Below are positions 3,653 through 31,918 of a stretch of 64,000 bases of DNA, one piece after another. Origin of the DNA: a virus (taxonomy: Duplodnaviria > Heunggongvirae > Uroviricota > Caudoviricetes); IMG/VR virus record IMGVR_UViG_2579779105_000001; one strand, written 5' to 3'. The notes beneath the pieces are model-generated. The model had not been told where the DNA came from and made no database searches. It was given only the letters and a program-made list of their open reading frames with translations. The translations under genes were made by a program, and so were the position numbers. Numbering within the stretch: the first letter of the stretch is position 1; every line of letters starts with the position of its first letter.

Positions 3653-3717
3653 CAACATTAAGGAGGCATAGGGATTTTTGTGGCGGTTACCTTTTGCCCT
3701 GAGTCTCCTTAATGTTG
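3653..3717. repeat. 13-bp perfect inverted repeat (CAACATTAAGGAG / CTCCTTAATGTTG) enclosing an AAGGAGG Shine-Dalgarno-like element
   Basis: Read directly from the sequence. Confidence 0.6.
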
Positions 3718-3934
3718 CGGTAATGCACCTATGCGGATGTGGCCTTGCATTGTGTCTTGAAAGAATGGGGTAAGGCCGGGGACATCCCCAGGGGGAGGCA
3801 CCCCCGCTGCAACGAACAGCCACAGACGGCAGTCGAGTGATGGGAACGTGCAAAGACTTTAAACCTCGTTATGGCTGGCGTGGCAAACGCGACAACCGAG
3901 ACAGAGCGGTGACGGGCGGAGAGAGTGCCGCATC

Positions 3935-4514: not shown

Positions 4515-4590
4515 TGATGGTGTAGCTCAGCGGTTAGAGCGGTTGACTGTTAATCAACGGGTCGATGGTTCAAATCCATCCACCATCGCC
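4515..4590 (+). tRNA. tRNA-Asn (anticodon GTT)
   Basis: Manual cloverleaf: acceptor GATGGTG/CACCATC, D-arm TAGCTCAGCGGTTAGAGC, anticodon loop CTGTTAA, T-loop GGTTCAAATCC, 3' CCA encoded. Confidence 0.85.
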
Positions 4591-4592
4591 AA

Positions 4593-4668
4593 TGCCGGTT
4601 TAGCTCAGTTGGTAGAGCGCCTGCCTTGTAAGCAGGATGTCAGCGGTTCGAGTCCGTTAACCGGCACC
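4593..4668 (+). tRNA. tRNA-Thr (anticodon TGT)
   Basis: Acceptor GCCGGTT/AACCGGC, anticodon stem-loop CCTGC-CTTGTAA-GCAGG, T-loop GGTTCGAGTCC, CCA encoded. Confidence 0.85.
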
Positions 4669-4882: not shown

Positions 4883-4993
4883 ACCGTAACCGGCACCACA
4901 ACGTTGAGAACATTGGCGTAACGGGATCATATCCCAATCTATGAATAAATGTCGCGAGGCAGCGTGACAACCAGTGTTCTCAACGTTGTGGTG
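4883..4993. repeat. 19-bp perfect inverted repeat (CACCACAACGTTGAGAACA and its reverse complement) around a 73-nt loop
   Basis: Read directly from the sequence; the loop contains a GGGATCATATCCC palindrome with a GATC site. Confidence 0.6.
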
Positions 4994-5220: not shown

Positions 5221-5484
5221 AGCGCAACGTTAAGAGTATTTGGCTAATTAAGCGAATGCCGGAAGCAGAACCGGATCACCAAATGCGTACAGGCGTCATC
5301 GCCGCCCAGCCAGCCAAGTGCTCTTACCATTGCGGTGAATGCGGCTAAGCGCACGCGGAACAGTTAAAACAATCCTTATTAGTGGTTAAATCAAACATCC
5401 CGGCGTTAATTGTTAACTGGTTAACGTCACCTGGAGGCACCAGGCACCGCAGCTTTTTTATTCGTTAAATAATGGAGTGAGAGG

Positions 5485-5703
5485 ATGCAGAACAATCCGA
5501 ACAAATGTCGAACGCTATGGGTGCGGCTATATATTTATGTCGTCCTCTGTTTGATTGTGTCACTGGTTCTGTATGTTTGGCTTTTGCCAAATATGATCTC
5601 ATCTGACAGCACAATACTTGTATTGTTGGGAGTCCTTCTCGCGCTCATTTACCCGGCTTTTGCAGTAGTCTTTTTTCGCAAAAAAATCCAGGAAATTGAT
5701 TAA
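5485..5703 (+). CDS. small hydrophobic membrane protein (two predicted TM helices)
   Basis: 72-aa ORF with hydrophobic segments; its stop overlaps the start of the next gene (ATTAATG). Confidence 0.45.
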   Translation: MQNNPNKCRTLWVRLYIYVVLCLIVSLVLYVWLLPNMISSDSTILVLLGVLLALIYPAFAVVFFRKKIQEID

Positions 5704-6530
5704 TGAAAAAAACGTTGATTAGTGCAGCGATTATTTTTGGTTCTTTATGTCTGACCGGATGCGACCGGGTAGAACCAGGCAATGTAGGGATCAAAGTAAA
5801 TAAGCTGGGGGATGATAAAGGTGTCGGCGAAGTAGTTGGCGTTGGTCGCTACTGGACAGGCTGGAACACAGAAGTTTATATCTTCCCGACCTTTAAGCAA
5901 ATGAAGACCTATGATGATCCGTTCAGCTTCCAAATGAGCGACGGGACAACAATTGGTTACCACATTGGTGTAGCTTACAAGGTTGATCCGGCAAAAGTCA
6001 CAACTGTATTTCAGACCTACCGCAAAGGCGTGGATGACATTACCGACACCGACCTGCGCCAGAAGATTGCCGACGCACTTAACCGACTGGCCAGCAAAAT
6101 GACCACCGACAAATTTATCGACGGTGGCAAGTCTGAACTGCTGGATGCAGCTCTTAAAGACATCCAGGAAGAAATGACGCCCATCGGTATTCAGGTAATG
6201 AGCCTCTCATATGTGGGCAAGCCGGAGTACCCGCCAACCGTTATCGACAGCATTAATGCCAAAGTCACGGCGAACCAGAAAACTCTGCAACGCGAGCAGG
6301 AAGTCAAGCAACGCGAAGCAGAAGCCAACATGCTGCGCGCAGAAGCTGCCGGACAGGCCGATGCCATTCGCACAAAAGCCCAGGCTGAAGCTGATGCCAT
6401 TCGTTTACGCGGTGAGGCTCTGCGCCAGAACCCCGGCGTTATGGAGTTGGAAGCGATCAACAAATGGAACGGAACGCTACCGCAGTATATGACCAGTAAT
6501 ACCGCTGTTCCGTTTGTTCCGGTGAAATAA
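5703..6530 (+). CDS. SPFH/band-7 (HflK/C-stomatin-like) domain lipoprotein
   Basis: Lipoprotein signal with LTGC lipobox; SPFH-like core and a C-terminal Ala/Glu/Arg-rich coiled coil (AEANMLRAEAAGQADAIRTKAQAEADAIRLRGEA). Confidence 0.6.
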   Translation: MKKTLISAAIIFGSLCLTGCDRVEPGNVGIKVNKLGDDKGVGEVVGVGRYWTGWNTEVYIFPTFKQMKTYDDPFSFQMSDGTTIGYHIGVAYKVDPAKVTTVFQTYRKGVDDITDTDLRQKIADALNRLASKMTTDKFIDGGKSELLDAALKDIQEEMTPIGIQVMSLSYVGKPEYPPTVIDSINAKVTANQKTLQREQEVKQREAEANMLRAEAAGQADAIRTKAQAEADAIRLRGEALRQNPGVMELEAINKWNGTLPQYMTSNTAVPFVPVK

Positions 6531-6543
6531 CCAAATAGAGAAC

Positions 6544-6684: not shown

Positions 6685-6760
6685 GGCCCTTTAGCTCAGT
6701 GGTTAGAGCTGGCGACTCATAATCGCACGGTCACCGGTTCAAGTCCGGTAGGGGCCACCA
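6685..6760 (+). tRNA. tRNA with CAT anticodon (Met, or Ile2 if lysidine-modified)
   Basis: Acceptor GGCCCTT/AGGGGCC with one G-U pair, D-arm TAGCTCAGTGGTTAGAGC, anticodon loop CTCATAA, T-loop GGTTCAAGTCC, CCA encoded. Confidence 0.8.
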
Positions 6761-8290: not shown

Positions 8291-8683
8291 ATGGAACAAA
8301 TCAGCAGCGCAGAAATTGCGGATATCATGATTAGGGCTGACTGCTATCTGACAGTCACTGAAATTACCATTCTCGCCAAAGAAAAATACCCTCATCTCCA
8401 TGTTTCACGGGTAAGTGTAACTAACATCATTCGTCATTTTGTTCGTTCAAGCAGGGCAATCTGTGAGCTTGATGATCGCGTTTACCCACGAAAATACTGG
8501 TTGCATGGCCTGAACGGATATCAGTTCAAGGTGCGTGGGCGAACCCCTGAATACGGCAGTTTACTGGTTAAAAACTGTAGCAGGAAATCAGTCGAACAGG
8601 CGCGAAAAGAGCAACGAGAGCTGGTGGACATGGCGAATAAGCTGTGGAATGCCGCCGTTAAAAAGCGTGGTGTTGCTTTATGA
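8291..8683 (+). CDS. putative late promoter activator (Lpa-like), by position upstream of pacA
   Basis: 130-aa ORF overlapping the pacA start by 4 nt. P1 has lpa directly upstream of pacA; no sequence comparison was possible. Confidence 0.35.
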   Translation: MEQISSAEIADIMIRADCYLTVTEITILAKEKYPHLHVSRVSVTNIIRHFVRSSRAICELDDRVYPRKYWLHGLNGYQFKVRGRTPEYGSLLVKNCSRKSVEQARKEQRELVDMANKLWNAAVKKRGVAL

Positions 8684-10044
8684 GTCTGGTTAATTGGGAG
8701 GAGCACCGCGCCCGCTTTATAGCGTTGCGTGAAGAAAAAGGGATCACTGTAAAGGAATACTGTGAGGAGCATGGCCTTAGCTTCAATACAGCCAGAAAGC
8801 ATCTCAATATGAAAAAAAATGAGGTGCGGTCGCAGGTAAAGACAACAAAAAAAAGCACCAAATCACCTGAAAAAAAACGGGCAGGAAGAGCAACAAAAAA
8901 GCAGGAAGAGGGTGCAGGAAAAACAAAATTTACAGAAATTGACAATTCGCAGGGCGCAGGTTCTTTCCGAAGTATGCCGAGAAAGAAAACTTCGGATCAT
9001 GAAAATAATTCAAATAATAACAATGAGATAAAAGAATCCGTCAGGAGATCATTACGCGAAAAAATGGCGAAAATGATCCCCGAAGAAGATAAAAGCGCCC
9101 CAAAAATTGAGGGATCTTCTGCAATGATCCCTGACGGTGCTGTGCAGCGTGCCACATTGCCAACTACGAATGTAGCTCGCGATATGATGAAGAACGGCGC
9201 AGAAGAACACCTGCGGTTAGCAATTCAAATGGCGCAAGAGCGCGCACTTCAGTATCAAAGCATTGTTGATCAGGAGGCCGAACGTCTACAGGCGGAAATA
9301 GACACCCTGGGCGATAAAGAGCCAGAAGGAATGCACCCTGGGCAGCGCCTTCTCGGTCTAATCAGTGACGCGGCCTACTACATGAATGATTTTATCAGTA
9401 GGTTGGCAGCTATTTATCAGTCCGAACAAAAGCTGCGACAGGGGGATGAAAAGCTTCGTCAGAGCGCTCGCCAGCAAGCATTCAAAGAGGCTGAGGCCAG
9501 AGAAAAACTCGAATTAGCACGCCTACAGGCCGAACAGCGTGGCAAAGAGATTGAATATCGCATTGGCGCTGACGCACGCGCAGCCAGAGTTATCGCCGCC
9601 GCTATACGTATGCGTGAGCGCGAGGAACTGGATGATATCGGTGTTGCTGAATACATCGAGCGCCAGGGTGTCAGCGTCCCGGCTATCCTCGCGGCGCGCG
9701 CGGCGAAAGCTATCACTCTTCTCGAACCACCTGTTTCTGACGTCAATGATGTTGATGATGAACAGCTGGACAAAGAGGCAAGGGAGTTTGCAACGCTTCA
9801 GGCTAACCATCCGCAATGGCTGGCAGAGCGCCGGGCGGATGTGGCAACCATTGTTGAAGAATTGGGGTGCGGAGATTACGACCGCAATGGCGAGCGTAAA
9901 GCTGGAGAATTCGAGGCCAACGACGAAGAGCTGGATATTGACCCTTCGGCAACGGCTGAAATTTACGGTGATTATGATGCATCTGATGCAGGGTATGACG
10001 CCGGAGATGATGATATCGCGATAGAACCGCCGGAGGATGATTAA
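8680..10044 (+). CDS. pacA: terminase small subunit / pac-site recognition protein (PacA-like)
   Basis: 454-aa ORF with N-terminal HTH-like region, basic/acidic low-complexity linker and acidic C-terminus; lies directly upstream of the large terminase. Confidence 0.55.
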   Translation: MSLVNWEEHRARFIALREEKGITVKEYCEEHGLSFNTARKHLNMKKNEVRSQVKTTKKSTKSPEKKRAGRATKKQEEGAGKTKFTEIDNSQGAGSFRSMPRKKTSDHENNSNNNNEIKESVRRSLREKMAKMIPEEDKSAPKIEGSSAMIPDGAVQRATLPTTNVARDMMKNGAEEHLRLAIQMAQERALQYQSIVDQEAERLQAEIDTLGDKEPEGMHPGQRLLGLISDAAYYMNDFISRLAAIYQSEQKLRQGDEKLRQSARQQAFKEAEAREKLELARLQAEQRGKEIEYRIGADARAARVIAAAIRMREREELDDIGVAEYIERQGVSVPAILAARAAKAITLLEPPVSDVNDVDDEQLDKEAREFATLQANHPQWLAERRADVATIVEELGCGDYDRNGERKAGEFEANDEELDIDPSATAEIYGDYDASDAGYDAGDDDIAIEPPEDD

Positions 10045-11552
10045 TGGCTGGCAGGCGCAAGGTTAAATGCGTCACCAGAGATCCACGCTGGCGCGATATG
10101 GTAATCAAATACCGCTACAACTTTACCCAGGCTGTTGTCGATATTTTTGGGATGTTCCCCTCCCACCAGCAGCAGCAGATCATTCAGTCCGTACAGGAAA
10201 CGGGGAGTAGGACTACCGTCACGTCCGGACACGGAACGGGGAAGTCGTCCCTTACCGCGATGTTGCTGTTGATTTTTATGATCCTGTTCCCCGATGCCCG
10301 TGTCATCATTGTTGCTAACAAGATAGGCCAGGTAAAAACAGGCGTATTCAAATACGTTAAACAGTATTGGGCGAATGCAGTTAAGCGTCATGGGTGGTTG
10401 CAGACCTATTTTGTCCTCTCTGACACCATGTTTTATGAGCGCTCCCGTAAGGGGATTTGGGAAGTTCTCTGCAAAGGTTATCGACTCGGCAACGAAGAAG
10501 CGCTGGCGGGGGAACACGCGGCACATTTGCTTCTAATTCTGGATGAAGCATCTGGTATATCTGATAAGGCGATCGGCGTAATGACCGGTGCTCTTACTGA
10601 AGAAGATAACCGGATGTTGATGCTATCCCAGCCAACAAGGCCAAGTGGTTATTTCTACGATTCGCACCATTCTCGAGCAAAAACCCCAGACAACCCGAAA
10701 GGGATCTGGACAGCAATTGTTCTTAACTCGGAAGAATCACCGTTCGTCACACCACAATTCATCAAGGAGAAGCTTCTGGAATATGGCGGGCGCGATTCTA
10801 TTGAGTACATGGTCAAGGTGCTTGGTCAGTTCCCACGAGAAATTAACGGCTATTTGCTTGGTCGTGATGAATGCGATCGCGCTGCTCGCCGCAAGGTGTT
10901 GTTGGAGAAAAACTGGGGATGGGTGGCAACGGCTGACGTTGGTAATGGGCGAGATAAGTCGGTCCTCAACATCTGCAAGGTATCAGGTCACAGGGATAAG
11001 CGGCGCGTTGTTAACTTTAAGGTAATGGAGATGCCTGGCACTATGGACCCATTGGCCTTTGCTGACTTCATATATAACGAATGTACGCCGGAAAAATACC
11101 CGAATATAACAATCGCGGTTGATGCTGATGGTTTTGGTTCTGATACGTGTGCGCAGTTGGTGCGTCGTGGTGCGAACCCGGTACGTATTCGGTGGGGAAA
11201 ACCCATGTTTGCGAACAAAGACAGGGAGCGATTTGTTAATCAGCGAGCCTACGCAAATATTATGGCGCGTGATGCCATAAAGTCAGGGCGTATGCGGATA
11301 GACAGTGACTCTAAAACGGCAGAGCAAGCGTCAAAAATCCCCTTTTTACTGAATGAAGAAGGGAAAATGGCGATGATGCGCAAAGAGCACATGCGGCAAA
11401 AGCTAAACATCAAATCGCCTGACCGATGGGATACCTACTGCTTCACTATGCTGGTGGACTATGTGCCTGCTAATGAAGATATTGGTGCCGAAATGGCAAC
11501 TTTCCGAGATCAGGTTCTGGCGGATATCGAAATGCCGGATCTGGATATATAA
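10044..11552 (+). CDS. pacB: terminase large subunit (PacB-like)
   Basis: 502-aa ORF with Walker A-like GHGTGKSS and LILDEAS Walker B-like motifs; start overlaps the pacA stop. Confidence 0.6.
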   Translation: MAGRRKVKCVTRDPRWRDMVIKYRYNFTQAVVDIFGMFPSHQQQQIIQSVQETGSRTTVTSGHGTGKSSLTAMLLLIFMILFPDARVIIVANKIGQVKTGVFKYVKQYWANAVKRHGWLQTYFVLSDTMFYERSRKGIWEVLCKGYRLGNEEALAGEHAAHLLLILDEASGISDKAIGVMTGALTEEDNRMLMLSQPTRPSGYFYDSHHSRAKTPDNPKGIWTAIVLNSEESPFVTPQFIKEKLLEYGGRDSIEYMVKVLGQFPREINGYLLGRDECDRAARRKVLLEKNWGWVATADVGNGRDKSVLNICKVSGHRDKRRVVNFKVMEMPGTMDPLAFADFIYNECTPEKYPNITIAVDADGFGSDTCAQLVRRGANPVRIRWGKPMFANKDRERFVNQRAYANIMARDAIKSGRMRIDSDSKTAEQASKIPFLLNEEGKMAMMRKEHMRQKLNIKSPDRWDTYCFTMLVDYVPANEDIGAEMATFRDQVLADIEMPDLDI

Positions 11553-11580: not shown

Positions 11581-12618
11581 TTACCAGAGCTTTGCGGCGC
11601 GCTGCGTTTGGGGGAATGTGTATCCGTAACGTTCTTCGATTGCTTTGCCGTATTTTTTACGCGCTTCATTCAGTTTGATGCCGGTCAGGTCGTCTCCAGA
11701 GGCCATCATTACGTCTAACAATTCCAGATCCATTTTATCCAGCCTTGCCATTGCTTCACGCGATGTACGAATCTTACGTTCAATGATATGGCGAATAGCC
11801 GGATCGGCATCCTCCAGCATCTTAGCTGATTTCTGCTTAAGGTTTTCGTTGCGGATATCGATGTTCCTTAAGATATACGACTTCGCAACGTAGCTTGGCT
11901 GATGTTTTTCCAGGTCACGAACACGATATAAGCTAAAGTCGCCGAGAAGGCTGCAAGGCACCGATTCGACGCCAGAATAAATTGTAATGCTACGGCGTTC
12001 ACCAACATTATTGACAACGGGGATCGTTGTCTTCGGTAGTTTTGCGAAAACGAATGCGCCATGTGCGCCAACTCTAAAGCGAGAAAGGGCATTGCTGCCT
12101 TCGATGTTTGTTGTCAGCACAACATCTGTATATGCCTCTTTACGCGCCCGGTAGACCTCGCCTTCAGGCTCAGCTTCAAAGAAGCGCTGTTCTTCTTCAA
12201 GAGCACCTACGATTTGAGAAAAAACCCTATTTTTCAGGCTTTTCTTTATGATTTTGTCGTATTTTTTGAGCAATTGTTCACGTGTAAATGTACGTGTTGT
12301 TGTAGCGCTTTGCACAACAACATGCGTGCTTTGATTGGTGTCCTCAATGATGAATGGGATCGGAGAATATACAGACTCAACAATGTTAGACGCTTTGCCG
12401 TCAGCATTACGGCACAAGTCAACAAAGGCTTTCCATTCTGCGAGGCACTTTTCAGCTTCTTCTAGTACATTTTGGTCGTGTGTTAGTGCAACGTGGCGGA
12501 ATTCCTCGCCAGCATAACTGGTATCATGGAAAACAGAGTTTGCGACCACCAGCTCTTTCCACCGTTCAGCGGTTTGCAGGAACCGTTTGTACTCTTTCTC
12601 GATCGACTTCTTACTCAT
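11581..12618 (-). CDS. hypothetical protein; candidate C1-like repressor by position and operator context
   Basis: 345-aa ORF convergent with pacB; an operator-like motif sits just upstream at 12637-12652. No sequence-level confirmation. Confidence 0.3.
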   Translation of the reverse strand: MSKKSIEKEYKRFLQTAERWKELVVANSVFHDTSYAGEEFRHVALTHDQNVLEEAEKCLAEWKAFVDLCRNADGKASNIVESVYSPIPFIIEDTNQSTHVVVQSATTTRTFTREQLLKKYDKIIKKSLKNRVFSQIVGALEEEQRFFEAEPEGEVYRARKEAYTDVVLTTNIEGSNALSRFRVGAHGAFVFAKLPKTTIPVVNNVGERRSITIYSGVESVPCSLLGDFSLYRVRDLEKHQPSYVAKSYILRNIDIRNENLKQKSAKMLEDADPAIRHIIERKIRTSREAMARLDKMDLELLDVMMASGDDLTGIKLNEARKKYGKAIEERYGYTFPQTQRAAKLW

Positions 12619-12636
12619 TATTCCTACTCGATTTAG

Positions 12637-12652
12637 TTTTCTAACATAAAAT
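12637..12652 (+). promoter_or_regulatory. operator-like site TTTTCTAACATAAAAT
   Basis: Motif instance 19 bp upstream of the start of the 11581-12618 gene. Confidence 0.45.
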
Positions 12653-12830
12653 CCCTATGACAAATCTATGTCGAATAACAGAGTGAGTAAAGGATCGAAC
12701 TATGATTTTTTTGTCATCAACTTTAGAAAACCAACCGTTGAAACCACACTTCGCAAATTAAAGACCATGAAGGCAACGTGTTACTGTCCATCATCAATCT
12801 ATGATGGATTACAAAAAAAATCGGCATTTT

Positions 12831-12864
12831 ATAACTTTAAATAATGGGGATTATTTAAAGTTAG
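12831..12864. other. lox-like recombination site (13-bp inverted arms, 8-bp spacer)
   Basis: ATAACTTTAAATA-ATGGGGAT-TATTTAAAGTTAG; arms match 12/13. Same architecture as loxP (ATAACTTCGTATA-ATGTATGC-TATACGAAGTTAT), sharing the outer ATAACTT and the spacer ATG start; 150 bp upstream of the Cre-like gene. Confidence 0.65.
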
Positions 12865-13015
12865 GCTATAATCATGTGTAGATGAACAGTATTGACATCA
12901 CTGAAAATACGTGCCTCGAATCAAAGGCTTGTATTTTGAAAATTAACTTATAGCTACCCTGTCATTTTTATATTTTTCGCGTAGCGTCATATGTATATAG
13001 AGGCGAAATAGTTTC

Positions 13016-14044
13016 ATGGGAGAATTAATTATCTCTGGCAGTTCCGGTGGTTTTCTGCGCAACATTGGCAAAGAGTACCAGGAAGCCGCAGAAAACTTTA
13101 TGCGGTTCATGAATGACCAGGGGGCTTATGCGCCGAATACTCTGCGCGACCTCCGGTTGGTGTTTCATTCCTGGGCGCGCTGGTGTCACGCTCGCCAGCT
13201 CGCCTGGTTCCCGATCTCACCAGAAATGGCCCGCGAGTATTTTCTTCAGCTGCATGATGCCGATCTGGCTTCGACCACCATTGATAAGCACTACGCCATG
13301 CTGAACATGCTGCTTTCGCATTGTGGCCTTCCGCCACTTTCGGATGATAAAAGTGTTTCTCTGGCTATGCGGCGCATCCGGCGCGAAGCGGCAACTGAAA
13401 AAGGCGAACGAACAGGCCAGGCTATACCGCTGCGGTGGGACGATCTGAAACTGCTCGACGTCCTGTTGTCCAGGTCAGAACGGCTGGTGGACCTGCGCAA
13501 CCGGGCTTTTCTCTTTGTTGCATACAATACGCTGATGCGTATGTCGGAAATCTCGCGTATTCGTGTAGGAGATCTGGACCAAACAGGTGACACTGTCACG
13601 CTACATATTTCACACACGAAGACAATAACGACCGCCGCCGGGCTTGATAAGGTGCTTTCCCGTCGCACTACCGCTGTGCTGAATGACTGGCTGGATGTTT
13701 CCGGGCTTCGCGAACATCGTGACGCAGTGCTGTTCCCGCCGATACACCGTAGCAATAAGGCCAGGATCACGACAACGCCCCTTACTGCACCTGCAATGGA
13801 GAAAATATTCAGCGACGCCTGGGTGTTGCTGAATAAAAGAGATGCTACGCCAAACAAAGGGAGATACCGGACGTGGACCGGGCATAGTGCACGCGTCGGG
13901 GCCGCTATTGATATGGCTGAAAAGCAGGTGTCTATGGTGGAGATCATGCAGGAAGGAACCTGGAAGAAACCGGAAACACTTATGCGGTATCTGCGCCGTG
14001 GCGGTGTGTCTGTGGGGGCTAATAGCCGCCTGATGGATTCGTAA
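13016..14044 (+). CDS. Cre-like tyrosine site-specific recombinase (divergent from P1 Cre)
   Basis: 342 aa. Conserved blocks shared with Cre: WFPxxPEDVRDYLL-like, SVSLAMRRIRREA, LAFxxIAYNTLLRIAEIARIRVxDI, WSGHSARVGAAxDMA, and the C-terminal Tyr region (MRYLRR). Confidence 0.85.
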   Translation: MGELIISGSSGGFLRNIGKEYQEAAENFMRFMNDQGAYAPNTLRDLRLVFHSWARWCHARQLAWFPISPEMAREYFLQLHDADLASTTIDKHYAMLNMLLSHCGLPPLSDDKSVSLAMRRIRREAATEKGERTGQAIPLRWDDLKLLDVLLSRSERLVDLRNRAFLFVAYNTLMRMSEISRIRVGDLDQTGDTVTLHISHTKTITTAAGLDKVLSRRTTAVLNDWLDVSGLREHRDAVLFPPIHRSNKARITTTPLTAPAMEKIFSDAWVLLNKRDATPNKGRYRTWTGHSARVGAAIDMAEKQVSMVEIMQEGTWKKPETLMRYLRRGGVSVGANSRLMDS

Positions 14045-14047
14045 ATT

Positions 14048-14062
14048 AAATTTCTAACACAT
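14048..14062 (+). promoter_or_regulatory. operator-like site AAATTTCTAACACAT
   Basis: Motif instance just after the cre-like stop and upstream of the 14118 ORF. Confidence 0.4.
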
Positions 14063-14117
14063 CTTTTTAGATTAACGCCTTTGATGTAAAGTACCCTCGC
14101 CTATTTAGGAGGGTGCT

Positions 14118-14462: not shown

Positions 14463-14935
14463 AAACTTATTACACATCTCTGAATTGTTACCCGTCTTCC
14501 TATCCAGAATTATCCGGGAAGCTGTTAGCTCTATTAGCTAAAGCACCTACGGAATGGTTTAAGCCAGTCGTTATCAATCCACACTTCCTGGATTACGGAT
14601 CTGTTCGCACTCGTAACGAACTCAAAAACCTACTGGCGCATGGATTCATTCGACACCGTGCCGCGAAAGGCTATCAGTTAGCGATTGCGCCAGAAGAGGC
14701 TGTGCGGCTATTCGCATATCGTGACAGCCAGACAAAAGCTCGGGTAATAGCTCAAATACTTCATAACGGCAGCACCTATGCCCGCCAGTTTGGCGGCGAC
14801 ACGTCGCAGTTCTTGCGGGCGGTGCGATCGCTGGAGGAGCAAGGAGTTATTGAAAGTTCCTGTCTTCCTGTTCCTACCGTTCCACATATCAAACGTCGGG
14901 TTTACACCTTCACGCAGAGAGCTAAAAAACAATGA
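14459..14935 (+). CDS. hypothetical protein
   Basis: 158-aa ORF, translationally coupled to its neighbours. Confidence 0.4.
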   Translation: MKTYYTSLNCYPSSYPELSGKLLALLAKAPTEWFKPVVINPHFLDYGSVRTRNELKNLLAHGFIRHRAAKGYQLAIAPEEAVRLFAYRDSQTKARVIAQILHNGSTYARQFGGDTSQFLRAVRSLEEQGVIESSCLPVPTVPHIKRRVYTFTQRAKKQ

Positions 14936-15426
14936 TTTACGTAAAAGTGAAACGCCTACATCCGGCAGCAAAACTTCCAGCTTATGCCACCTCCGGATCG
15001 GCGGCGATGGATTTTGAGGCTGTTGAAATAAAACCATGCGTCGATAGCAATGGTGCAATTTCCTCAAGCTGGTGGGTGTATACCGGACTGGCTATGGAGA
15101 TCCCGCCCGGCTGGTGTCTGAAACTCTATCCGCGATCCGGATTGGGCTGCAAAAAACATACTCGCCTGGCTAACTGCGTAGGAATTATCGACTCCGATTA
15201 TCGCGGCGAAATCATGGCAAAACTGATTACTGATCCCGGCGGGGAAGGCGTTTGTCTCAAGCCTGGAATGGCTGTCATGCAAGGAATTTTTGAACGTGTT
15301 GAACAAGTCTCACTAGTCGAGGTTGAGGAACTCAACGAAACGGAACGTGGTGCTGGTGGCTTTGGTAGCACATCGGAAGGCCACTTTGAAATTAAGCGTT
15401 CACCGCTTCAGTACGAAAAGTTATAA
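14932..15426 (+). CDS. dut: dUTP diphosphatase (dUTPase)
   Basis: Motifs PRSGLG (II), GIIDSDYRGE (III) and ERGAGGFGST (V); motif IV is divergent (GMAVMQGIF rather than GERIAQ). Confidence 0.75.
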   Translation: MIYVKVKRLHPAAKLPAYATSGSAAMDFEAVEIKPCVDSNGAISSSWWVYTGLAMEIPPGWCLKLYPRSGLGCKKHTRLANCVGIIDSDYRGEIMAKLITDPGGEGVCLKPGMAVMQGIFERVEQVSLVEVEELNETERGAGGFGSTSEGHFEIKRSPLQYEKL

Positions 15427-15440
15427 GCAGAGAAAAGACT

Positions 15441-16142
15441 ATGAATAACATGGCAACGAAAGAGCTTTTTAAGTTCCTTCCCAAATACAAAGCTCACAAA
15501 AACGTTAGTGCATCGAAAATCAAAAATGTTGTTATTTTCGGAGTAACTGATGCCCCACTTTGGGGCAGCATCGAACTCGTTGAACCAAAAGGGGCAACAG
15601 TTTGTGTTGACGCAATGTTTTTACAAAAACACCGACCAAAAACTGGCGGGTATCTGATCGTTTATGAAAACGGTTATCTGTTCTATGCCCCGGAGAAACC
15701 ATTTGAGGAACGCTATGGCCTGGTTAACGACGTCTCCAAAAATGGAACCACGGTCATCATTACGGATGACAACGGCGAGATGATTAATCTTACCGGGAGC
15801 GTAACTATTTCTGCTGGTGGCATCACCACCCAGCAAGAAGAAATCGACCTTGAAGCAGCCGACTTTTCTGACGCGCTGATGTGGCTGAAGGATGGCAAGA
15901 AAGTTGCCCGGCGCGGGTGGAACGGCGAAAACCAATTCTGCTGGCTGGTTCCAGACAAACACGGCGCTTCAAGACTAACCCCTATAAAACATGCCATCAA
16001 TGGAGAGCTTGAAATCAATTTCGACTCTCCTCTTGCTCCTTATGGTACGCATTTCGCTTTGAAAAATGCACAAGGTGTAGTTGTTCCGTGGGTGCCTTCT
16101 GTAGGCGACTTACTGGCATGTGACTGGTTTGTAGTGGAGTGA
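15441..16142 (+). CDS. phage protein with DUF2829-like C-terminal domain
   Basis: ALMWLKDGKKVARRGWNG ... VVPWVPSVGDLLACDWFVVE; family name recalled from memory, not verified. Confidence 0.45.
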   Translation: MNNMATKELFKFLPKYKAHKNVSASKIKNVVIFGVTDAPLWGSIELVEPKGATVCVDAMFLQKHRPKTGGYLIVYENGYLFYAPEKPFEERYGLVNDVSKNGTTVIITDDNGEMINLTGSVTISAGGITTQQEEIDLEAADFSDALMWLKDGKKVARRGWNGENQFCWLVPDKHGASRLTPIKHAINGELEINFDSPLAPYGTHFALKNAQGVVVPWVPSVGDLLACDWFVVE

Positions 16143-19098: not shown

Positions 19099-20020
19099 GG
19101 CCCGCCTCATGCTTTTCAGCCACCAGCGGCAATAAAGCCCTGGCCATCTTATGAACCAATAGTGCATCAATAATGCCAAGCGTATGCCCCGGCTTAATGT
19201 TTAATGCCGCCTCAAGGTGACACCTTTCCAGGCCACTTTTCTCGGCTTGTTTATGATGATCTGGTGTAATAACGTCGCCCAAAACACGGCTAATTCTTTC
19301 TCGTAATTGCTGGGTGCCAGCACACTTGATCGCTGTATCGTGGAGACGGTTAACCAGTTCGCGATAAACATGCGGCTTAATTCGGATACGTTCACCGGTG
19401 ACGCCCTTTCCTGGCGCTGGCACCGAACTATCCGGAATATCCGGATAGTTGCCAGCCTCGTAAGCTACCCGCAGCCAGTGCATGAATGTTTCAGTGGACA
19501 CACAACCACAGTCCACATCGATTTTCCCGCGTTGCTGTTCCAGCCATTGCCCAAAATCCAACCTGTAAGTCTTACTTTCAAGTTCATCACCATTGAACTC
19601 GACTTTCTGCGACGCTATGAGAGCTGATTCGTATTGTTCGCGAGTGACAACTGACTGGTATTCATCGCTATCAAGGTCACCAATTGGAAGCTCAATCTCA
19701 CAACAAAAATTGCGCCCAAAGAAAGTGTCTTTTTTGTGGTCTGAGCCAAAAGCAAAAGTCGCGCATGGTGCCATTAAATTGACACTGGGTAGGTAACAAT
19801 AACTCATTCCATCAGGCCACCCGCCGCACTTAGGCAGCTCCTTCACTAACAAGTCGATAAGCTTCATTTTTTTATCATCTTTGCAAGCCGCCAAAGCCAT
19901 TTGGGCAAGTGCCAATACTTCATCTGCCGTATATCCAGCACCGTGACCATACATTTCGATACGGGAAATAATCTCTGATATACGCTCTTCAGTGATTCTG
20001 GTCATTTCTTTTTGCGCCAT
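19082..20020 (-). CDS. hypothetical phage protein
   Basis: 312 aa; shares the segment HxYRELVNxLxD...GT(Q/E)QLRERL with the 29161-29772 protein. Confidence 0.5.
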   Translation of the reverse strand: MAQKEMTRITEERISEIISRIEMYGHGAGYTADEVLALAQMALAACKDDKKMKLIDLLVKELPKCGGWPDGMSYCYLPSVNLMAPCATFAFGSDHKKDTFFGRNFCCEIELPIGDLDSDEYQSVVTREQYESALIASQKVEFNGDELESKTYRLDFGQWLEQQRGKIDVDCGCVSTETFMHWLRVAYEAGNYPDIPDSSVPAPGKGVTGERIRIKPHVYRELVNRLHDTAIKCAGTQQLRERISRVLGDVITPDHHKQAEKSGLERCHLEAALNIKPGHTLGIIDALLVHKMARALLPLVAEKHEAGHANES

Positions 20021-20376
20021 TTCTTTTCACATTCCTTAGTCCATTTTTCAATGTTCATTTTGGCAATATCAGTCATTCCATCACCTAAGAAATACTTTCT
20101 CCGGTATGTCTTGCACTTAAACCACACTACAACAGCCACCAGCCAGAAAATAAAAGGCCATACAGCAATACCAACGACAGCCGCGATAAAGCCCAATATC
20201 CATAAATGAAGCTCTCCAACTTCTGTTTCCGGCAATATTCTTAAAGAATTAAACAGCAGGCTGAACGAATGGTCGTATGCATTGGCAGTATAAGACATGC
20301 AATCCATATAATTAAAGTCATAGCCTGCGGCTGCCGCCCCTAATGGGGGGGCAAGAAAAAGTTTTTGTGTCATCAT
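20002..20376 (-). CDS. small membrane protein
   Basis: 124 aa with two hydrophobic helices and a basic C-terminal tail. Confidence 0.4.
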   Translation of the reverse strand: MMTQKLFLAPPLGAAAAGYDFNYMDCMSYTANAYDHSFSLLFNSLRILPETEVGELHLWILGFIAAVVGIAVWPFIFWLVAVVVWFKCKTYRRKYFLGDGMTDIAKMNIEKWTKECEKKWRKKK

Positions 20377-20382
20377 ATTAAT

Positions 20383-20772
20383 TTAAGGTTCAGACCAGTT
20401 ATCTTCAATAGCAATGCTTAATCTTTGTAGCCATTCTGCTAATTTCAGCATTGCTTCTCTTTCGCTTAAACCACGAGGAAAATCATCAAGCGATATTGTT
20501 GGCTTGAAGCCCCCGTAATTATCCATTTCAACGGTCAGATTTTGCTCCAGTACGGTATTCCTTACGCGGCTATTGTGGCGAAGCAAATATACTGAACGTG
20601 ATTTATTGGTTTTGTGGTCGAGCTGATGTTCGGTAAGTATCATCTGGCTTTTGCCATGACTATTACCTCTCCACATACTTACCTCACTTAATAAAACAAC
20701 TCCATACGTAGTTGATGATTTTTTCCCACGTAATATAAATCTGCACTCCGGCAGTAAAACCAAAGCCAACAA
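20383..20772 (-). CDS. hypothetical protein
   Basis: 129-aa ORF; start uncertain. Confidence 0.35.
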   Translation of the reverse strand: MLALVLLPECRFILRGKKSSTTYGVVLLSEVSMWRGNSHGKSQMILTEHQLDHKTNKSRSVYLLRHNSRVRNTVLEQNLTVEMDNYGGFKPTISLDDFPRGLSEREAMLKLAEWLQRLSIAIEDNWSEP

Positions 20773-20854
20773 TTGCTGAAAAAATCAAAACATTTACTTT
20801 TGACATTATAAATTTTCTCTCGGTGTCGTAGGTGATAGCACCATAATTGATAAT

Positions 20855-21106
20855 TTAGTGAGTTAGCAGTTCCATTTTTTGGATGATTTCCGCATGAGCA
20901 TCATCGTTATCAACACTTAACTCGTTTAATGCCTCTCGCACCACATCAACTTCTTCTGGTTGGAAGAAATCATCTCGGTAGTCACCAAATAGAACCGAAA
21001 CAAGCCTGCCACCAGCAACATCAAGATTGGCGCTAACAGGTGGCTCTTTACCATCCTCAAATTCGACTACAAAAGTTATTTTTCCCATCGTTACCACCAG
21101 CGACAA
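20855..21106 (-). CDS. hypothetical protein
   Basis: 83-aa acidic ORF. Confidence 0.35.
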   Translation of the reverse strand: MSLVVTMGKITFVVEFEDGKEPPVSANLDVAGGRLVSVLFGDYRDDFFQPEEVDVVREALNELSVDNDDAHAEIIQKMELLTH

Positions 21107-21170
21107 ATTGAATACAAACCCAGTGCTGCCGCCATCACAATTCCTACCGTGGTGAATGCTTCAGGCCAGC

Positions 21171-22013
21171 TCATTGATTCACCTCCTGCGGCGGTTCTGG
21201 TAGCGGCATCCAGTGGGTTACCTCTTTGAGATGCAGGTCTTCGCCGTCGCCGTCATCCCACGTTGGATTGCCATCATCAAACCAGTCGCCATATACGCCA
21301 ACCTGAGTGTTTGGTATGTTGGGCCAATAGTTATTTTTGAAATCAGCAGCTAATACATAGCGCTGCTTTTCACCCATTTCCGGCATCCGCTCGCTTACCG
21401 GAATCCATTTACCCGGCACGGTAGCGGGTTCACTGCCGGGTAGTTGCGGCGCGGCTGCGAGCATGGCCTCGGTTTCCGCAATCAGGTTGTGAGGTAGTTG
21501 GCATCCTGCATTTTGCATGCCGTGGCCAAATGCCAGCCAGCGCCGAAGCATGTCCGCTGAACCATCCGGAATTACCGGAGAGTTGCCAGCCAGCGCGTTC
21601 AACTTGTAAGCCTGGCTTACAGGTTCGGCACTATGAAGCATGGCAGCTCGGCAGGCGTTCCAGCCAGATGTTCGCCCAAGCGCGTAAACTTCAGATGGCT
21701 CAAGATAATCAATGTCATGCCCGTCCTCATCGTCGTTCTCAGGTAATGCAGCAGGTACTACCGGTACTGGCGGGGCGGCATAAACAGGAATAACGTCCGA
21801 TTGCTCTTTATTGCTTTCATCCGTTAAAGCCCAGAATAATTTTCCAGCCGGATGTTTGAAAATATAAGCAACTGGTTCTGCTTCCAGCGATGCCAGAGCA
21901 ATTCGTGCCAGTTCTTCCGCTTCTTCTGCTGGCAGTACAACGTTGCTACCAGGTCCGTATGTTTCGCGCCACTGCTTGATTGTCAGCAGTCGCTCTTTGG
22001 TAATAGTGGTCAT
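21171..22013 (-). CDS. phage protein with DUF551-like C-terminus
   Basis: 280 aa ending ...VTHWMPLPEPPQ, typical of lambdoid prophage accessory proteins; family name from memory. Confidence 0.5.
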   Translation of the reverse strand: MTTITKERLLTIKQWRETYGPGSNVVLPAEEAEELARIALASLEAEPVAYIFKHPAGKLFWALTDESNKEQSDVIPVYAAPPVPVVPAALPENDDEDGHDIDYLEPSEVYALGRTSGWNACRAAMLHSAEPVSQAYKLNALAGNSPVIPDGSADMLRRWLAFGHGMQNAGCQLPHNLIAETEAMLAAAPQLPGSEPATVPGKWIPVSERMPEMGEKQRYVLAADFKNNYWPNIPNTQVGVYGDWFDDGNPTWDDGDGEDLHLKEVTHWMPLPEPPQEVNQ

Positions 22014-22351: not shown

Positions 22352-22582
22352 TGCCAGACGCCAGGAGCGTTTCTACGAACTAACAGAATCTTTGCTTTAC
22401 GGTTTTTCATCGCTTTGCTCTCCTGCGTCTCTTTGCTGCTCGTCGTGCCGCTGCAATACCGGTATGGCGGCGCTTTGGTGCCGGGATGATGTTGTCAGCC
22501 ATCAGGACATGTGGCTTTGCAATTAGCGCAGAAGCCCAAAAACGAGTCGGGTACGGTAACAAGCCGATACATGCCACACGCA

Positions 22583-22840
22583 TTACTCACCTCCTTTAAT
22601 GCGAATGCCAGCGGCGCGGATGGCGTCAGCGCAATAATCGATAGCGCAGTTGTGTCCTTTGCCGAAATCATCCTCAGCCATCACTTTGTCATCGAGTTTT
22701 ATCTCGATAGCTGCGCGAGATGCCTGCCATGCCCTCCATGCCATTTCCGTGGATGAATAAACATACCCGCAATCACCATATACAAGGCTTAAATTTTGCT
22801 TTTTCGCGAACTCCAAAAACTGCTTTCTTGATTCGTCCAT
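22583..22840 (-). CDS. hypothetical protein ending ...GIRIKGGE
   Basis: Start set at the ATG immediately after the upstream stop (AAAGGAGAGTGATATG junction). Confidence 0.4.
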   Translation of the reverse strand: MDESRKQFLEFAKKQNLSLVYGDCGYVYSSTEMAWRAWQASRAAIEIKLDDKVMAEDDFGKGHNCAIDYCADAIRAAGIRIKGGE

Positions 22841-22841
22841 A

Positions 22842-23744
22842 TCACTCTCCTTTGATGCGAATACCAGCAAGCCAGTTTCTTATGCCGATATATTCAGCAT
22901 TCCTGAAACCGCTTTTTACATATATAAATGGCAAGCGAAGATTGTGACCATTGGCTGCCAGGTAGTCTTTACAACCCTGTTCGGTGAAACAGCAGGTAAC
23001 GAATTCATCAATATCTTTCACAGCAACGCGCCGCCATTTTTCTGGTGGCTCTCGAAAGTTTTCGTGAAGTAGTTCGAGACGACGACTTTGGCGTTTATTG
23101 GCTTCATTGCCATCTTCATCAACCCAGACAATCCGGTCATAGTCATAATCAGCATCAACAACGATTTCGCGCTTTTGATACACACAAAACATAGGGTCTG
23201 ACGTTATTCGATTATCCTGTGTTCGAATATTTTCACCGATGATGCCAAACGAATCTGGTGCAGATTTTGTCTGCAACTCTTCGATACGTTCAGCCATCGC
23301 AGCACACTCTTCAAAGTTGCTTAATGCTTTTCGCTCCGATTCAGCGCATTGTTTTTCCAGTTCTGCTATGCGCTTACCTCCATCCGCGATTACTCCCTCG
23401 TAATGCTCGCGCTGCTCGTTGAGTTTTGATTTTGCCGACTCCAGTTGTTTTGTTAGTTCCACAATACGGCAAACATCGTTGATACGCGTTTCCTCTAATG
23501 CGTTGATCTCATCCAGTAGTGCCAGTGCAACTTTTGGTGGGATAGCCGCGATATAACGGGCATTGGCACTAGCGTTCCTCTGTCCATCAATGCCAGGCCA
23601 GTCAATAAAGTATCCGCAATGCCTACCCTCAGACGTGCGCGCAGGATAAATGCCGTTATGTCCCGGCAAAATATATGCTACCCATTCATCTTGCGTTGCC
23701 TGCTCCGCTGCCTCGCGCAACTCCTGATAGTTAGTTTCACTCAC
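22842..23744 (-). CDS. Ead/Ea22-like protein (lambdoid ea-region family)
   Basis: 300 aa; N-terminal MSETNYQELREAAEQATQDEW motif, central coiled coil, C-terminus ...GIRIKGE. Confidence 0.5.
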   Translation of the reverse strand: MSETNYQELREAAEQATQDEWVAYILPGHNGIYPARTSEGRHCGYFIDWPGIDGQRNASANARYIAAIPPKVALALLDEINALEETRINDVCRIVELTKQLESAKSKLNEQREHYEGVIADGGKRIAELEKQCAESERKALSNFEECAAMAERIEELQTKSAPDSFGIIGENIRTQDNRITSDPMFCVYQKREIVVDADYDYDRIVWVDEDGNEANKRQSRRLELLHENFREPPEKWRRVAVKDIDEFVTCCFTEQGCKDYLAANGHNLRLPFIYVKSGFRNAEYIGIRNWLAGIRIKGE

Positions 23745-23931
23745 TATCTGCTCCTTCCGCTTTCTCTGCTTTATCCGCCATGATTTCCAGCTTTTGTGCT
23801 GCTGATGCCGCTAACATTTGAAATTCTTCATCTGTTTCAACTGGAATTGGTACAAACCTGACTCCAATTTGAGCAAGGCTATGCGCCATCTCTAGACTTG
23901 CTCTTAACTCTGCTGGTGAGGCTTTATTCAT
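23737..23931 (-). CDS. hypothetical small protein
   Basis: 64-aa ORF overlapping the downstream start. Confidence 0.3.
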   Translation of the reverse strand: MNKASPAELRASLEMAHSLAQIGVRFVPIPVETDEEFQMLAASAAQKLEIMADKAEKAEGADSE

Positions 23932-24027
23932 TTGGCTTCCTCCTTCCGATACATCATGATTGCCAGACCTCCCTTTGTAGTAATGCGGATGGTGCTGCCT
24001 GGCTCCATGCTCATGCCTTTATCCCAA

Positions 24028-26343: not shown

Positions 26344-26648
26344 TTTGTTTTCTCCTGTCTGAACATCACTATCATCAGGTCGCCTTTTGTCGCTATCCTC
26401 GCTGTTGTGCCTGGTTCAATGCTGCCAAGTTCAAATGCGTCATAGAACGCTTCTAATGCCTTCTGGCGTAGTTCCTGTTTGCGCCGTTTTTTCCACTGTT
26501 TCAGGAAAATGGAACCCAGCCATCGCCATGTACGGGACATGATGAAAAACCAACCGAGAAGTGCCAGACCGGTATTCAGGAGCGTATCGATCGTTATTGT
26601 CGTGTCGATATTCACTGGCTGCTTCCGTTGCGAATCTGTTCCGCCCAT
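26340..26648 (-). CDS. small membrane protein
   Basis: 102-aa ORF with a hydrophobic helix. Confidence 0.35.
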   Translation of the reverse strand: MGGTDSQRKQPVNIDTTITIDTLLNTGLALLGWFFIMSRTWRWLGSIFLKQWKKRRKQELRQKALEAFYDAFELGSIEPGTTARIATKGDLMIVMFRQEKTK

Positions 26649-27544
26649 TCTTCAAGGGATTTCTCCGCATATTCACCGGACAGGCCATCAAGCGGATGCG
26701 GTTCATTAGCCAACTCTTCTTTCGCTGACAAAATCATGCGTGTAACGTCGAAAACTTCACGCAAAGACTTATTGATAAATCCGTGATTGAACGCAGCAGC
26801 AAGACGGCTTGCGGTGTAGTTAATCCCCTCGTTGCGTGCCTCCGCACGTACTTCAGCCAGGAAAGCGTCGGTTGCTGGGGTGTCGATATTAGGCAGAAGC
26901 GCATAATCGCAAATCGTATCGATCGCAGGATCACAACAGTCATCCTCGTTGCGTGGTCGTTCGCCAACCTTCGTTGACGATTGCATGATGATTCCCCAGC
27001 AAATACTATCGACCTCTTCGCTCCATCCATCGCAAGCATCACCGCGATAGTCGTCGATTGCAGCCTCAGCCGATTCGATAGCTTCCTCAGCAGTTTTGTG
27101 CCATTCGAAATTATGCTCAGAGCCATATGAGAAATATGAATGTCCCGCCTTCAGCCCCGCATTCTCCGCCGCCAGCGCCGCGCAATTACCCTCCAGCTCT
27201 GCAATGCGCTGTTTTGCGGCATCAAGTTCAATCGATAATTTTTCCAACTGCTCTTTATGCTTCTTGTATTCCTGATATGCGTGCCAGGACTGACCTTTGC
27301 GCACACTATCAGTAATATCAGTAATCTGTTCTGGTGTTAGCGTGGTCAGTGGCTGTGCTGGGAAAATCAGCACTTTCCCGGAATCCCAATCAAAACCAGC
27401 GTGAATTGACTGAACCTCAACTGAAGGTGTTGAACCAATGCTGCCAGGCGAATGAACAACGATCGTTACATCCATATCGCGACGATGGCTGTGGTTGTTG
27501 GACAAAATACGATTCACCAACTCAGAAAATTTGGAAAATTTCAT
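26612..27544 (-). CDS. hypothetical coiled-coil protein, paralog of 28348-28857
   Basis: Start set at MKFSKF; shares [17 protein letters not shown] ... RMILSAKE and [11 protein letters not shown] segments with its paralog. Confidence 0.5.
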
Positions 27545-27864
27545 GCTGATTCCCTTTGATCTTCCTGGATAATGTTGTTGCAATCTTTCACGCACTCGTT
27601 GCAGATGAAAGCGTTGTCCCCAGCAATTAACTTTTTAACGGTGTGCTGGGATTTGTTGCAGAAGCTGCAATAAAGCGTTGGACTGGCTGATACGGATGGT
27701 GCGCCAGATGTCAGCCGCGCGATGTCGTTCTTGCGACGCAATATCACACGGCTGCACTCAACCAGCATCTCCGGGGATATACCCTCCTCCGTGGCGAGCG
27801 CCTCCAGACGTTCGAGCAAGCGAAATACTTTTTCCTGGGTGATTGCATAATGCGATGTGGTCAT
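27541..27864 (-). CDS. small protein with ClpX-type N-terminal zinc-binding domain (ZBD-like C4 zinc finger)
   Basis: C-terminus [38 protein letters not shown] aligns with E. coli ClpX residues about 13-50 ([38 protein letters not shown]). Confidence 0.6.
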
Positions 27865-31898: not shown

Positions 31899-31918
31899 TT
31901 CTGCCTCCGCTGCGTAAC

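What the first reader, a model, noticed from the sequence alone, without database searches (positions are those of the whole stretch)
12831..14044. New lox-like site paired with a divergent Cre-like recombinase
ATAACTTTAAATA-ATGGGGAT-TATTTAAAGTTAG has the 13/8/13 architecture of loxP and shares the outer ATAACTT and the spacer ATG start, but differs at the inner arm positions and the rest of the spacer. The adjacent recombinase keeps Cre's conserved blocks but is clearly divergent. This could be an orthogonal Cre/lox pair. A second palindrome (TCCATCAT-CAATCT-ATGATGGA, 12787-12808) lies just upstream.
Basis: partly seen in the sequence, partly recalled or inferred. Interest (0 to 1): 0.6.

Follow-up and report, generated by a model that had tools for sequence, protein, structure and literature searches.

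The report
Dre recombinase and its rox site
The lox-like site and the Cre-like gene are real, but they are the already known Dre/rox recombination system of phage D6, sitting here in a D6-like E. coli phage-plasmid with a rare two-base variant in the centre of the site.

Summary
A perfect 14-4-14 inverted repeat lies at 12832-12863, none is expected by chance, and an intact 342-aa tyrosine recombinase gene lies 152 bp downstream (13016-14044).

It is not new. The protein is 340/342 identical to Dre of phage D6 (differences S2G and P235R). Both 14-bp arms match the annotated rox site of D6, and the gene order c1 - rox - dre - orf - orf - dut is the same. 84% of the window aligns to the D6 genome.

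All Cre catalytic residues are present (R175, E178, K202, H290, R293, W316, Y325). Identity to Cre is 40%.

The only departure is the central 4 bp: GGGG here against TGGC in D6. In the published orientation the 8-bp core is ATCCCCAT against ATGCCAAT, so positions 3 and 6 differ. This allele is rare but recurs in independent E. coli assemblies.

Published mutagenesis found that randomising these central 4 bp barely reduces recombination with wild-type rox. Positions 2 and 7, unchanged here, decide heterospecificity. The site is therefore most likely an ordinary working rox.

Low interest.

One side observation: the rox core doubles as the -35 of a dre-ward promoter in D6, and this allele destroys that match.

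The parts
12832..12863 (+). rox site: 32-bp Dre target, 14-bp arm, 4-bp asymmetric centre, 14-bp arm.
   Evidence: Perfect 14/14 inverted repeat (I2). Arms identical to the annotated rox of D6, AY753669 4909-4940. One match in the window and none in 100 shuffles. Arms invariant in 28 related loci.
12832..12845 (+). left (c1-side) rox arm, TAACTTTAAATAAT
12846..12849 (+). central 4 bp of the crossover core. GGGG here, TGGC in D6 on this strand (CCCC against GCCA in the published orientation). These are core positions 3-6, and positions 3 and 6 are the ones changed.
   Evidence: Position numbering from PMC4777119.
12850..12863 (+). right (dre-side) rox arm, ATTATTTAAAGTTA
13016..14044 (+). dre gene: 342-aa Cre-type tyrosine recombinase, Dre allele with G2 and R235
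   Evidence: 340/342 identical to D6 Dre AAV84949. Pfam PF00589, E 5.5e-17. Cre chains in the PDB, E about 1e-67. R175, E178, K202, H290, R293, W316 and Y325 align with Cre R173, E176, K201, H289, R292, W315 and Y324. The exact protein is in NCBI, for example EZJ98326.1.
12845..12872 (+). position of the rox-embedded sigma-70-like promoter of D6 (TTGGCA-16-TATAAT, reading toward dre). Here the -35 is TGGGGA (12845-12850, 3/6) and the -10 TATAAT (12867-12872) is intact.
   Evidence: The scan finds the 11/12 site in D6 and no site in the window. A site of at least 11/12 arose in 3.3% of shuffles of the D6 region. TATAAT follows rox in all related loci, including the 69%-identity Enterobacter lineage. 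Function is inferred, not shown.
12787..12808 (.). second palindrome, TCCATCAT-CAATCT-ATGATGGA, 23 bp to the c1 side of rox. Lineage-specific and of unknown role.
   Evidence: I13. Arms are 6 bp in D6, degenerate in L006, L021 and L029, and the element is absent in L005, L008, L012, L014, L017, L020 and L025. The only other match in the window is a weak one with 3 mismatches. No T-run follows it, so it is not terminator-like.
11581..12618 (-). c1 prophage repressor gene, transcribed away from dre (context)
   Evidence: Corresponds to c1 of AY753669 3661-4698. PF27008 Phage_P7_repressor_C1 on the identical gene. Weak NCBIfam phage_rep_C1 hit.

Best explanation
This is the Dre/rox site-specific recombination module of a D6-like plasmid prophage (phage-plasmid) of E. 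coli. It is the D6 counterpart of Cre/loxP in phage P1.

Inferred mechanism. Two Dre monomers bind the two rox arms. Two occupied rox sites synapse into a tetramer. Tyr325, assisted by R175, K202, H290, R293 and W316, cleaves at the edges of the asymmetric core, and strands are exchanged in two steps through a Holliday junction.

Inferred biological role, by analogy with P1. The system resolves plasmid-prophage multimers into monomers so that they can be partitioned. It can also circularise terminally redundant virion DNA after injection.

The copy in this window is a rare natural allele. Its core centre is GGGG instead of TGGC, and its Dre carries S2G and P235R. It most likely behaves as ordinary rox.
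For: Shown here:
- The protein is 340/342 identical to D6 Dre.
- The DNA is 96.7% identical over 1.5 kb to the D6 immC record, where rox and dre are annotated.
- The arms are identical and only 2 core bases differ.
- The gene order is the same: pacA-pacB-c1-rox-dre-orf-orf-dut.
- 53.5 of 64 kb aligns to the D6 genome at 81-98% identity.
- In complete E. coli genomes the locus is found only on plasmids of about 90 kb: 31 places on plasmids and none on chromosomes.
- The catalytic residues are intact.
- The arms are invariant across 28 loci, including a 69%-identity Dre homologue. That indicates selection on the site.

From the literature:
- Canonical rox is TAACTTTAAATAATGCCAATTATTTAAAGTTA. Dre is reported as not cross-reacting with Cre or Flp (PMC4777119).
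- A library randomised at the central 4 bp recombined with wild-type rox at about 0.9, close to the wild-type control. Positions 2 and 7 control compatibility.
- Dre also recombines pox, whose core differs from rox at 4 of 8 positions (PMC4957104).

The GGGG allele recurs with intact arms and an intact ORF in independent assemblies, so it is not a sequencing error or a decayed site.
Against: P235 aligns with Cre P234 and is Pro in every other Dre allele examined. The effect of Arg at this position is unknown.

The biological roles (dimer resolution, cyclisation) are carried over from P1 Cre/lox on the basis of established knowledge. I could not retrieve the primary D6 or P1 papers.

No P1-type cluster of pac hexamers was found in pacA, so the cyclisation role is the weaker inference.
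Confidence: 0.96

Rival explanations
1. The GGGG core is a naturally heterospecific rox allele. It recombines with itself but not with canonical rox, so related phage-plasmids in one cell do not form cointegrates. That would make it a new orthogonal site for Dre.
For: Two of the six bases in the presumed overlap region differ from wild type. In Cre/lox, core mismatches block exchange between unlike sites (PMC4777119). rox x pox cointegration failed, 'likely because of incompatible spacer' (PMC4957104). The allele is carried by a distinct sub-lineage.
Against: The changed positions are 3 and 6. In Chuang et al. the pooled library randomised at positions 3-6 still recombined with wild-type rox at about 0.9. 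Selection for incompatibility left the nucleotide distributions at positions 3 and 6 essentially unchanged. Positions 2 and 7, unchanged here, were decisive.
Confidence: 0.15
2. The module is decaying. The core change and Dre P235R have inactivated recombination, and the site is a relic.
For: P235 is otherwise invariant and matches Cre P234. The core change also removes the -35 match of the only consensus-grade promoter upstream of dre.
Against: The ORF is full length with all catalytic residues. Both arms are perfect. The same allele pair is on at least 10 contigs from different samples. The GGGG core also occurs with a P235 Dre allele (L026). None of this is the pattern of a pseudogene.
Confidence: 0.04
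3. It is an integrase/attP pair used for chromosomal integration rather than a plasmid resolution and cyclisation system.
For: The protein hits the Pfam 'Phage integrase family', and NCBI annotates it generically as tyrosine-type recombinase/integrase.
Against: All 31 matches in complete E. coli genomes are on plasmids and none is on a chromosome. The element carries plasmid replication, partition and addiction genes in D6. The site is a simple symmetric 32-bp Cre-type target with no arm-type sites. The protein is a full-length Cre homologue.
Confidence: 0.01

Closest known systems
Dre/rox of Escherichia phage D6 (AY753669, MF356679; Sauer & McDermott 2004, as cited in PMC4777119 and PMC4957104)
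   Same: The protein is 99.4% identical (340/342). Both 14-bp arms are identical. The spacing, the position between c1 and dre, and the flanking genes are the same. The DNA is 96.7% identical over the locus.
   Different: The core centre is GGGG against TGGC (published orientation ATCCCCAT against ATGCCAAT, positions 3 and 6). Dre carries S2G and P235R. The upstream palindrome has 8-bp arms instead of 6-bp arms, and there is a 2-bp insertion in the A-run next to it. The -35 match of the rox-embedded promoter is lost.
Cre/loxP of phage P1
   Same: Same enzyme family and fold. The catalytic R-E-K-H-R-W-Y set is conserved. The target is of similar size (32 bp here, 34 bp for loxP), with inverted arms around an asymmetric core. 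The left arm is 10/13 identical and the core starts with ATG. The site lies next to the c1 immunity region of a plasmid prophage.
   Different: Protein identity is only 40%. Arm positions 8-10 and most of the core differ. The specificity residues differ: Cre K43, R259 and G263 correspond to Dre R44, P259 and K263 (residues named in PMC4957104). The two systems are described as not cross-reacting.
Panto/pox (Pantoea sp. aB)
   Same: A Cre-type pair whose arms differ from rox by one nucleotide. Dre recombines pox and Panto recombines rox (PMC4957104).
   Different: Panto is only 52% identical to Dre, and the pox core differs from rox at 4 of 8 positions. The window's enzyme is Dre itself.
Engineered heterotypic rox sites: rox7, rox8, rox12, rox61, rox85 (Chuang et al. 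2016, PMC4777119)
   Same: Core variants of rox with unchanged outer arms that Dre still recombines with themselves.
   Different: Those carry G or C at core positions 2 and 7, and that is what makes them incompatible with wild-type rox. The window's natural allele keeps T2 and A7 and changes only positions 3 and 6.

Membership tests
Tyrosine site-specific recombinases (Pfam PF00589) | Catalytic domain with the conserved Arg...His-x-x-Arg...Tyr set (plus Lys and His/Trp) | tested here: met
   PF00589 at E 5.5e-17, 62.5 bits against a cut-off of 27.1. R175, K202, H290, R293, W316 and Y325 align with Cre R173, K201, H289, R292, W315 and Y324.
Cre-type recombinases | Full-length homology to Cre, covering both the N-terminal and the catalytic domain | tested here: met
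   phmmer E 9.6e-68 to Cre chain 1nzb_A, query residues 22-341 against Cre 21-340. 39.9% identity in a global alignment.
Cre-type recombinases | A simple target next to the gene: two inverted arms of about 13-14 bp around an asymmetric core, with no accessory arm sites | tested here: met
   14-4-14 perfect inverted repeat, 152 bp upstream of the start codon.
Dre/rox (phage D6) | Protein identity with Dre | tested here: met
   340/342 identical to AAV84949.
Dre/rox (phage D6) | rox arms TAACTTTAAATAAT / ATTATTTAAAGTTA | tested here: met
   Both arms are identical to D6 and to the published rox (PMC4777119).
Dre/rox (phage D6) | Canonical core centre GCCA (TGGC on the dre-ward strand) | tested here: not met
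   GGGG here, with 2 of 4 bases different. The literature indicates the central 4 bp are not specificity-defining for Dre, so this is an allelic difference and does not exclude membership.
Dre/rox (phage D6) | Genomic context: between c1 and the dut block of a P1/D6-type plasmid prophage | tested here: met
   Same gene order as AY753669. 84% of the window aligns to D6. Found on plasmids only.
Dre/rox (phage D6) | Dre-dependent recombination between two copies of the site, and none by Cre | not testable with these tools
   Needs an in vivo or in vitro recombination assay.

The most novel reading that the evidence does not exclude
The GGGG core, possibly together with Dre P235R, is a naturally evolved rox variant with functional consequences. 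Either it is heterospecific toward canonical rox, which would isolate this phage-plasmid sub-lineage from cointegration with co-resident D6-like plasmids. Or, because the rox core is also the -35 of a dre-ward promoter that Dre binding would occlude, it rewires dre expression and autoregulation.
Probability: 0.15. Interest if true: 0.3.

Novelty: already known. Interest (0 to 1): 0.1.

Why it matters
It matters little. Dre/rox has been a standard companion to Cre/lox in mouse, zebrafish and bacterial genetics for about twenty years, and D6-like plasmid prophages are common in E. coli and Salmonella.

The small residual value is the natural variation in the rox core. At least four alleles exist, and one of them changes the position that governs heterospecificity. 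The core also overlaps a promoter-like element. These could offer pre-tested natural heterotypic rox sites, or a route into how dre is regulated.

Tried and rejected
1. Primary papers. I tried to retrieve Sauer & McDermott 2004 and the P1 genome paper. Neither is held. The origin and properties of Dre/rox are therefore cited through PMC4777119 and PMC4957104.

2. Literature search for the exact variant site, in either orientation. Nothing was found in the searchable library.

3. Second palindrome as a C1 operator. The P1 operator consensus has no match in the window with up to 3 mismatches. The palindrome has no good second copy in the window. It is missing from several rox/dre lineages. I rejected it as a required part of the system. 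Its role stays unknown.

4. Palindrome as a terminator. There is no T-run on either strand, and the scan does not list it.

5. P1-type pac hexamer cluster in pacA, looked for to support the cyclisation role. None was found.

6. The only match in the genome collection, in a Clostridia MAG (L002). It is an AT-rich hairpin between two convergent ORFs of 190 and 198 aa, with an A-run before it and a T-run after it. It looks like a terminator and is unrelated to Dre.

7. Rfam scan of the window. It found only three tRNAs and nothing near the site.

8. Structure prediction and the large homology searches were not run. The answer did not depend on them.

Full report
**Observation**

- The lox-like site ATAACTTTAAATA-ATGGGGAT-TATTTAAAGTTAG lies at 12831-12864.
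- The palindrome TCCATCAT-CAATCT-ATGATGGA lies at 12787-12808.
- A 342-aa ORF lies at 13016-14044.

The repeat finder gives the exact symmetry as 14-4-14: TAACTTTAAATAAT / GGGG / ATTATTTAAAGTTA at 12832-12863, with 100% complementary arms. With up to three mismatches the arm pattern occurs once in the 64 kb, and never in 100 dinucleotide-preserving shuffles. So the site is real and is not a chance feature.

**Identity**

A megablast of 12600-14100 against phage records hits the immC region of Escherichia phage D6 (AY753669) at 96.7% over the full length. The features annotated under the match are 'dre: tyrosine recombinase', 'region of crossover (rox) site for Dre recombinase' and 'c1: phage repressor protein'.

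The ORF product is 340/342 identical to D6 Dre. The only differences are S2G and P235R.

In the DNA alignment both 14-bp arms are identical to D6 rox. Only two bases of the central four differ: GGGG here against TGGC in D6 on this strand. The published rox, TAACTTTAAATAATGCCAATTATTTAAAGTTA (PMC4777119), is the reverse complement of the D6 strand shown here.

The neighbourhood matches D6:
- pacA 8680-10044
- pacB 10044-11552
- c1 11581-12618 (-)
- rox
- dre
- two small ORFs
- dut 14932-15426

In total 53.5 of the 64 kb aligns to the complete D6 genome at 81-98% identity. The alignment breaks at rox only because the D6 record is linearised there.

The locus is on 116 PLSDB plasmids of about 90 kb from E. 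coli, Salmonella and Shigella. In complete E. coli genomes it is found only on plasmids. The exact protein is in NCBI on E. coli contigs. One of these, GCA_000627855.1 JJMD01000056.1, is identical to the window over the 4 kb compared.

**Enzyme**

The protein hits Pfam PF00589, E 5.5e-17. It matches Cre chains in the PDB over its full length, E about 1e-67. It is 39.9% identical to Cre in a global alignment.

Cre R173, E176, K201, H289, R292, W315 and Y324 align with Dre R175, E178, K202, H290, R293, W316 and Y325.

The Cre residues that Karimova et al. singled out for arm specificity are K43, R259 and G263. In Dre they are R44, P259 and K263 (PMC4957104). None of these residues differs between this allele and canonical Dre.

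No Dre chain is in the PDB copy searched. Cre is the closest solved relative.

**How it most likely works**

The sequence shows an intact Cre-type enzyme next to a perfect, conserved Cre-type target. What follows is inferred from the Cre paradigm and from the Dre literature.
- One Dre monomer binds each arm.
- Two occupied sites synapse.
- Tyr325 cleaves at the edges of the asymmetric core.
- Strands are exchanged through a Holliday junction.

The GGGG/CCCC centre is still asymmetric, so the site keeps its direction.

By analogy with P1, the biological roles are resolution of plasmid-prophage multimers and, less certainly, circularisation of infecting DNA. I found no P1-style pac hexamer cluster to strengthen the second role.

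**The one difference**

In the 8-bp numbering of Chuang et al., wild-type rox is A1 T2 G3 C4 C5 A6 A7 T8. The window reads A T C C C C A T, so positions 3 and 6 are changed.

That study reports three relevant results.
- A library randomised at positions 3-6 recombined with wild-type rox almost as well as the wild-type control, at about 0.9.
- Selection for incompatibility skewed positions 2 and 7, not positions 3 and 6.
- All the validated heterotypic sites carry G or C at positions 2 and 7.

Dre also recombines pox, whose core differs from rox at four of eight positions. The most likely reading is that this is a working rox that still cross-reacts with canonical rox, and not a new specificity. 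I give the heterospecific alternative about 0.15.

**Frequency of the allele**

The allele is rare but real. It occurs in:
- 1 of 23 IMG/VR loci;
- 1 of 31 complete E. coli genomes with the locus;
- none of about 49 PLSDB plasmids that cover the site;
- all three contigs examined, standing for ten read, that encode the exact Dre(G2,R235) protein.

It also occurs on the E. coli strain 205 plasmid, with a different Dre allele that has P235. R235 replaces a proline that is present in every other Dre allele examined and in Cre (P234). Its effect is unknown.

**Second palindrome**

The palindrome is real, but it is specific to one type of c1-side flank.
- The arms are 8 bp in this sub-lineage.
- They are 6 bp in D6.
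- They are degenerate in L006, L021 and L029.
- The element is absent in seven loci that keep identical rox arms and a dre gene.

It has no good second copy in the window. It does not resemble the P1 C1 operator, which itself has no match in the window. It is not terminator-like. It is not a necessary part of Dre/rox, and I cannot assign it a function.

**Side observations**

- In D6 the rox core supplies the -35 of an 11/12 sigma-70-like promoter, TTGGCA-16-TATAAT, that reads toward dre. A site that good arose in 3.3% of shuffles of the D6 region.
- The TATAAT directly after the right arm is kept in every lineage, including one where the surrounding sequence has diverged.
- In the window the -35 becomes TGGGGA, and the scan finds no promoter between c1 and dre.
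- If that promoter is real, Dre bound to rox would sit on it. That arrangement would give autoregulation, and this allele would weaken expression. This is inference only.

**Verdict**

Novelty: already known. Interest: low.

Noticed in passing
window 12845-12872; L001 (AY753669) 4922-4949: In D6 the rox core forms the -35 of an 11/12 sigma-70-like promoter, TTGGCA-16-TATAAT, that reads toward dre. The GGGG allele in the window turns the -35 into TGGGGA, and no promoter-like site is then found between c1 and dre. The TATAAT after rox is conserved in all lineages. This suggests a Dre-occluded, self-regulated promoter.
   Followed up: partly
L027 (NZ_CP058619.1) 1525-1556; L008 (IMGVR_UViG_3300009011_000012), rox at 3706-3737: At least four natural rox core alleles exist. 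On the dre-ward strand they are ATTGGCAT (common), ATGGGGAT (window), ATTGGAGT (CP058619) and ATTAGCAT (L008). The CP058619 allele changes published core position 2 from T to C. That is the kind of change Chuang et al. found to make rox incompatible with wild type. It is therefore a candidate natural heterotypic rox.
   Followed up: partly
L008 2524-3552 (- strand): A Dre homologue that is only 69% identical (105 of 342 residues differ) sits next to a site with exactly the same 14-bp rox arms. Its closest plasmid match, at 98.2%, is the 88-kb plasmid NZ_CP074151.1 of Enterobacter sp. JBIWA008. The arms are far more conserved than the enzyme.
   Followed up: partly
L025 (IMGVR_UViG_2585427777_000008) around 2148-2179: The c1-side flank switches to unrelated sequence from about 100 bp upstream right up to the left edge of rox. 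The dre-side flank stays D6-like. This looks like a mosaic junction at the recombination site, as expected if rox x rox exchange shuffles lineages.
   Followed up: no
window 15441-16142 (+): The 233-aa ORF downstream of dut carries a precomputed Pfam PF11195 Tad2-like hit on the identical gene in L033-L035. The corresponding region of the strain 205 plasmid is annotated 'Thoeris anti-defense Tad2 family protein'. D6 has a different, shorter ORF at this position.
   Followed up: no
window 5452-6542, 19458-22009, 22440-24009, 26627-27559, 28184-28738, 31362-32484, 41379-42819: These segments have no blastn match to the D6 genome. They are accessory or replaced cargo relative to D6 and were not examined.
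   Followed up: no
window 4516-4588, 4594-4666, 6685-6757 (+): Three tRNA genes (Rfam RF00005), in the region where D6 and the strain 205 plasmid carry tRNA-Asn, -Thr, -Ser and -Ile.
   Followed up: no
window 11581-12618 (-): The C1 repressor is very distant from the P1-type C1 model: NCBIfam phage_rep_C1 scores 25 bits against a cut-off of 500. The P1 C1 operator consensus has no match in the window with up to 3 mismatches. The operators of this immunity type are therefore different and were not identified here.
   Followed up: partly
L002 (OZ007016.1, Clostridia MAG) 6381-6412: An exact match to the rox arm pattern with a TAAT centre. It lies inside a longer AT-rich palindrome between two convergent ORFs, with an A-run before it and a T-run after it. 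It looks like a bidirectional terminator hairpin, and no Cre-size ORF is adjacent. I take it to be a coincidence of AT-rich sequence.
   Followed up: yes
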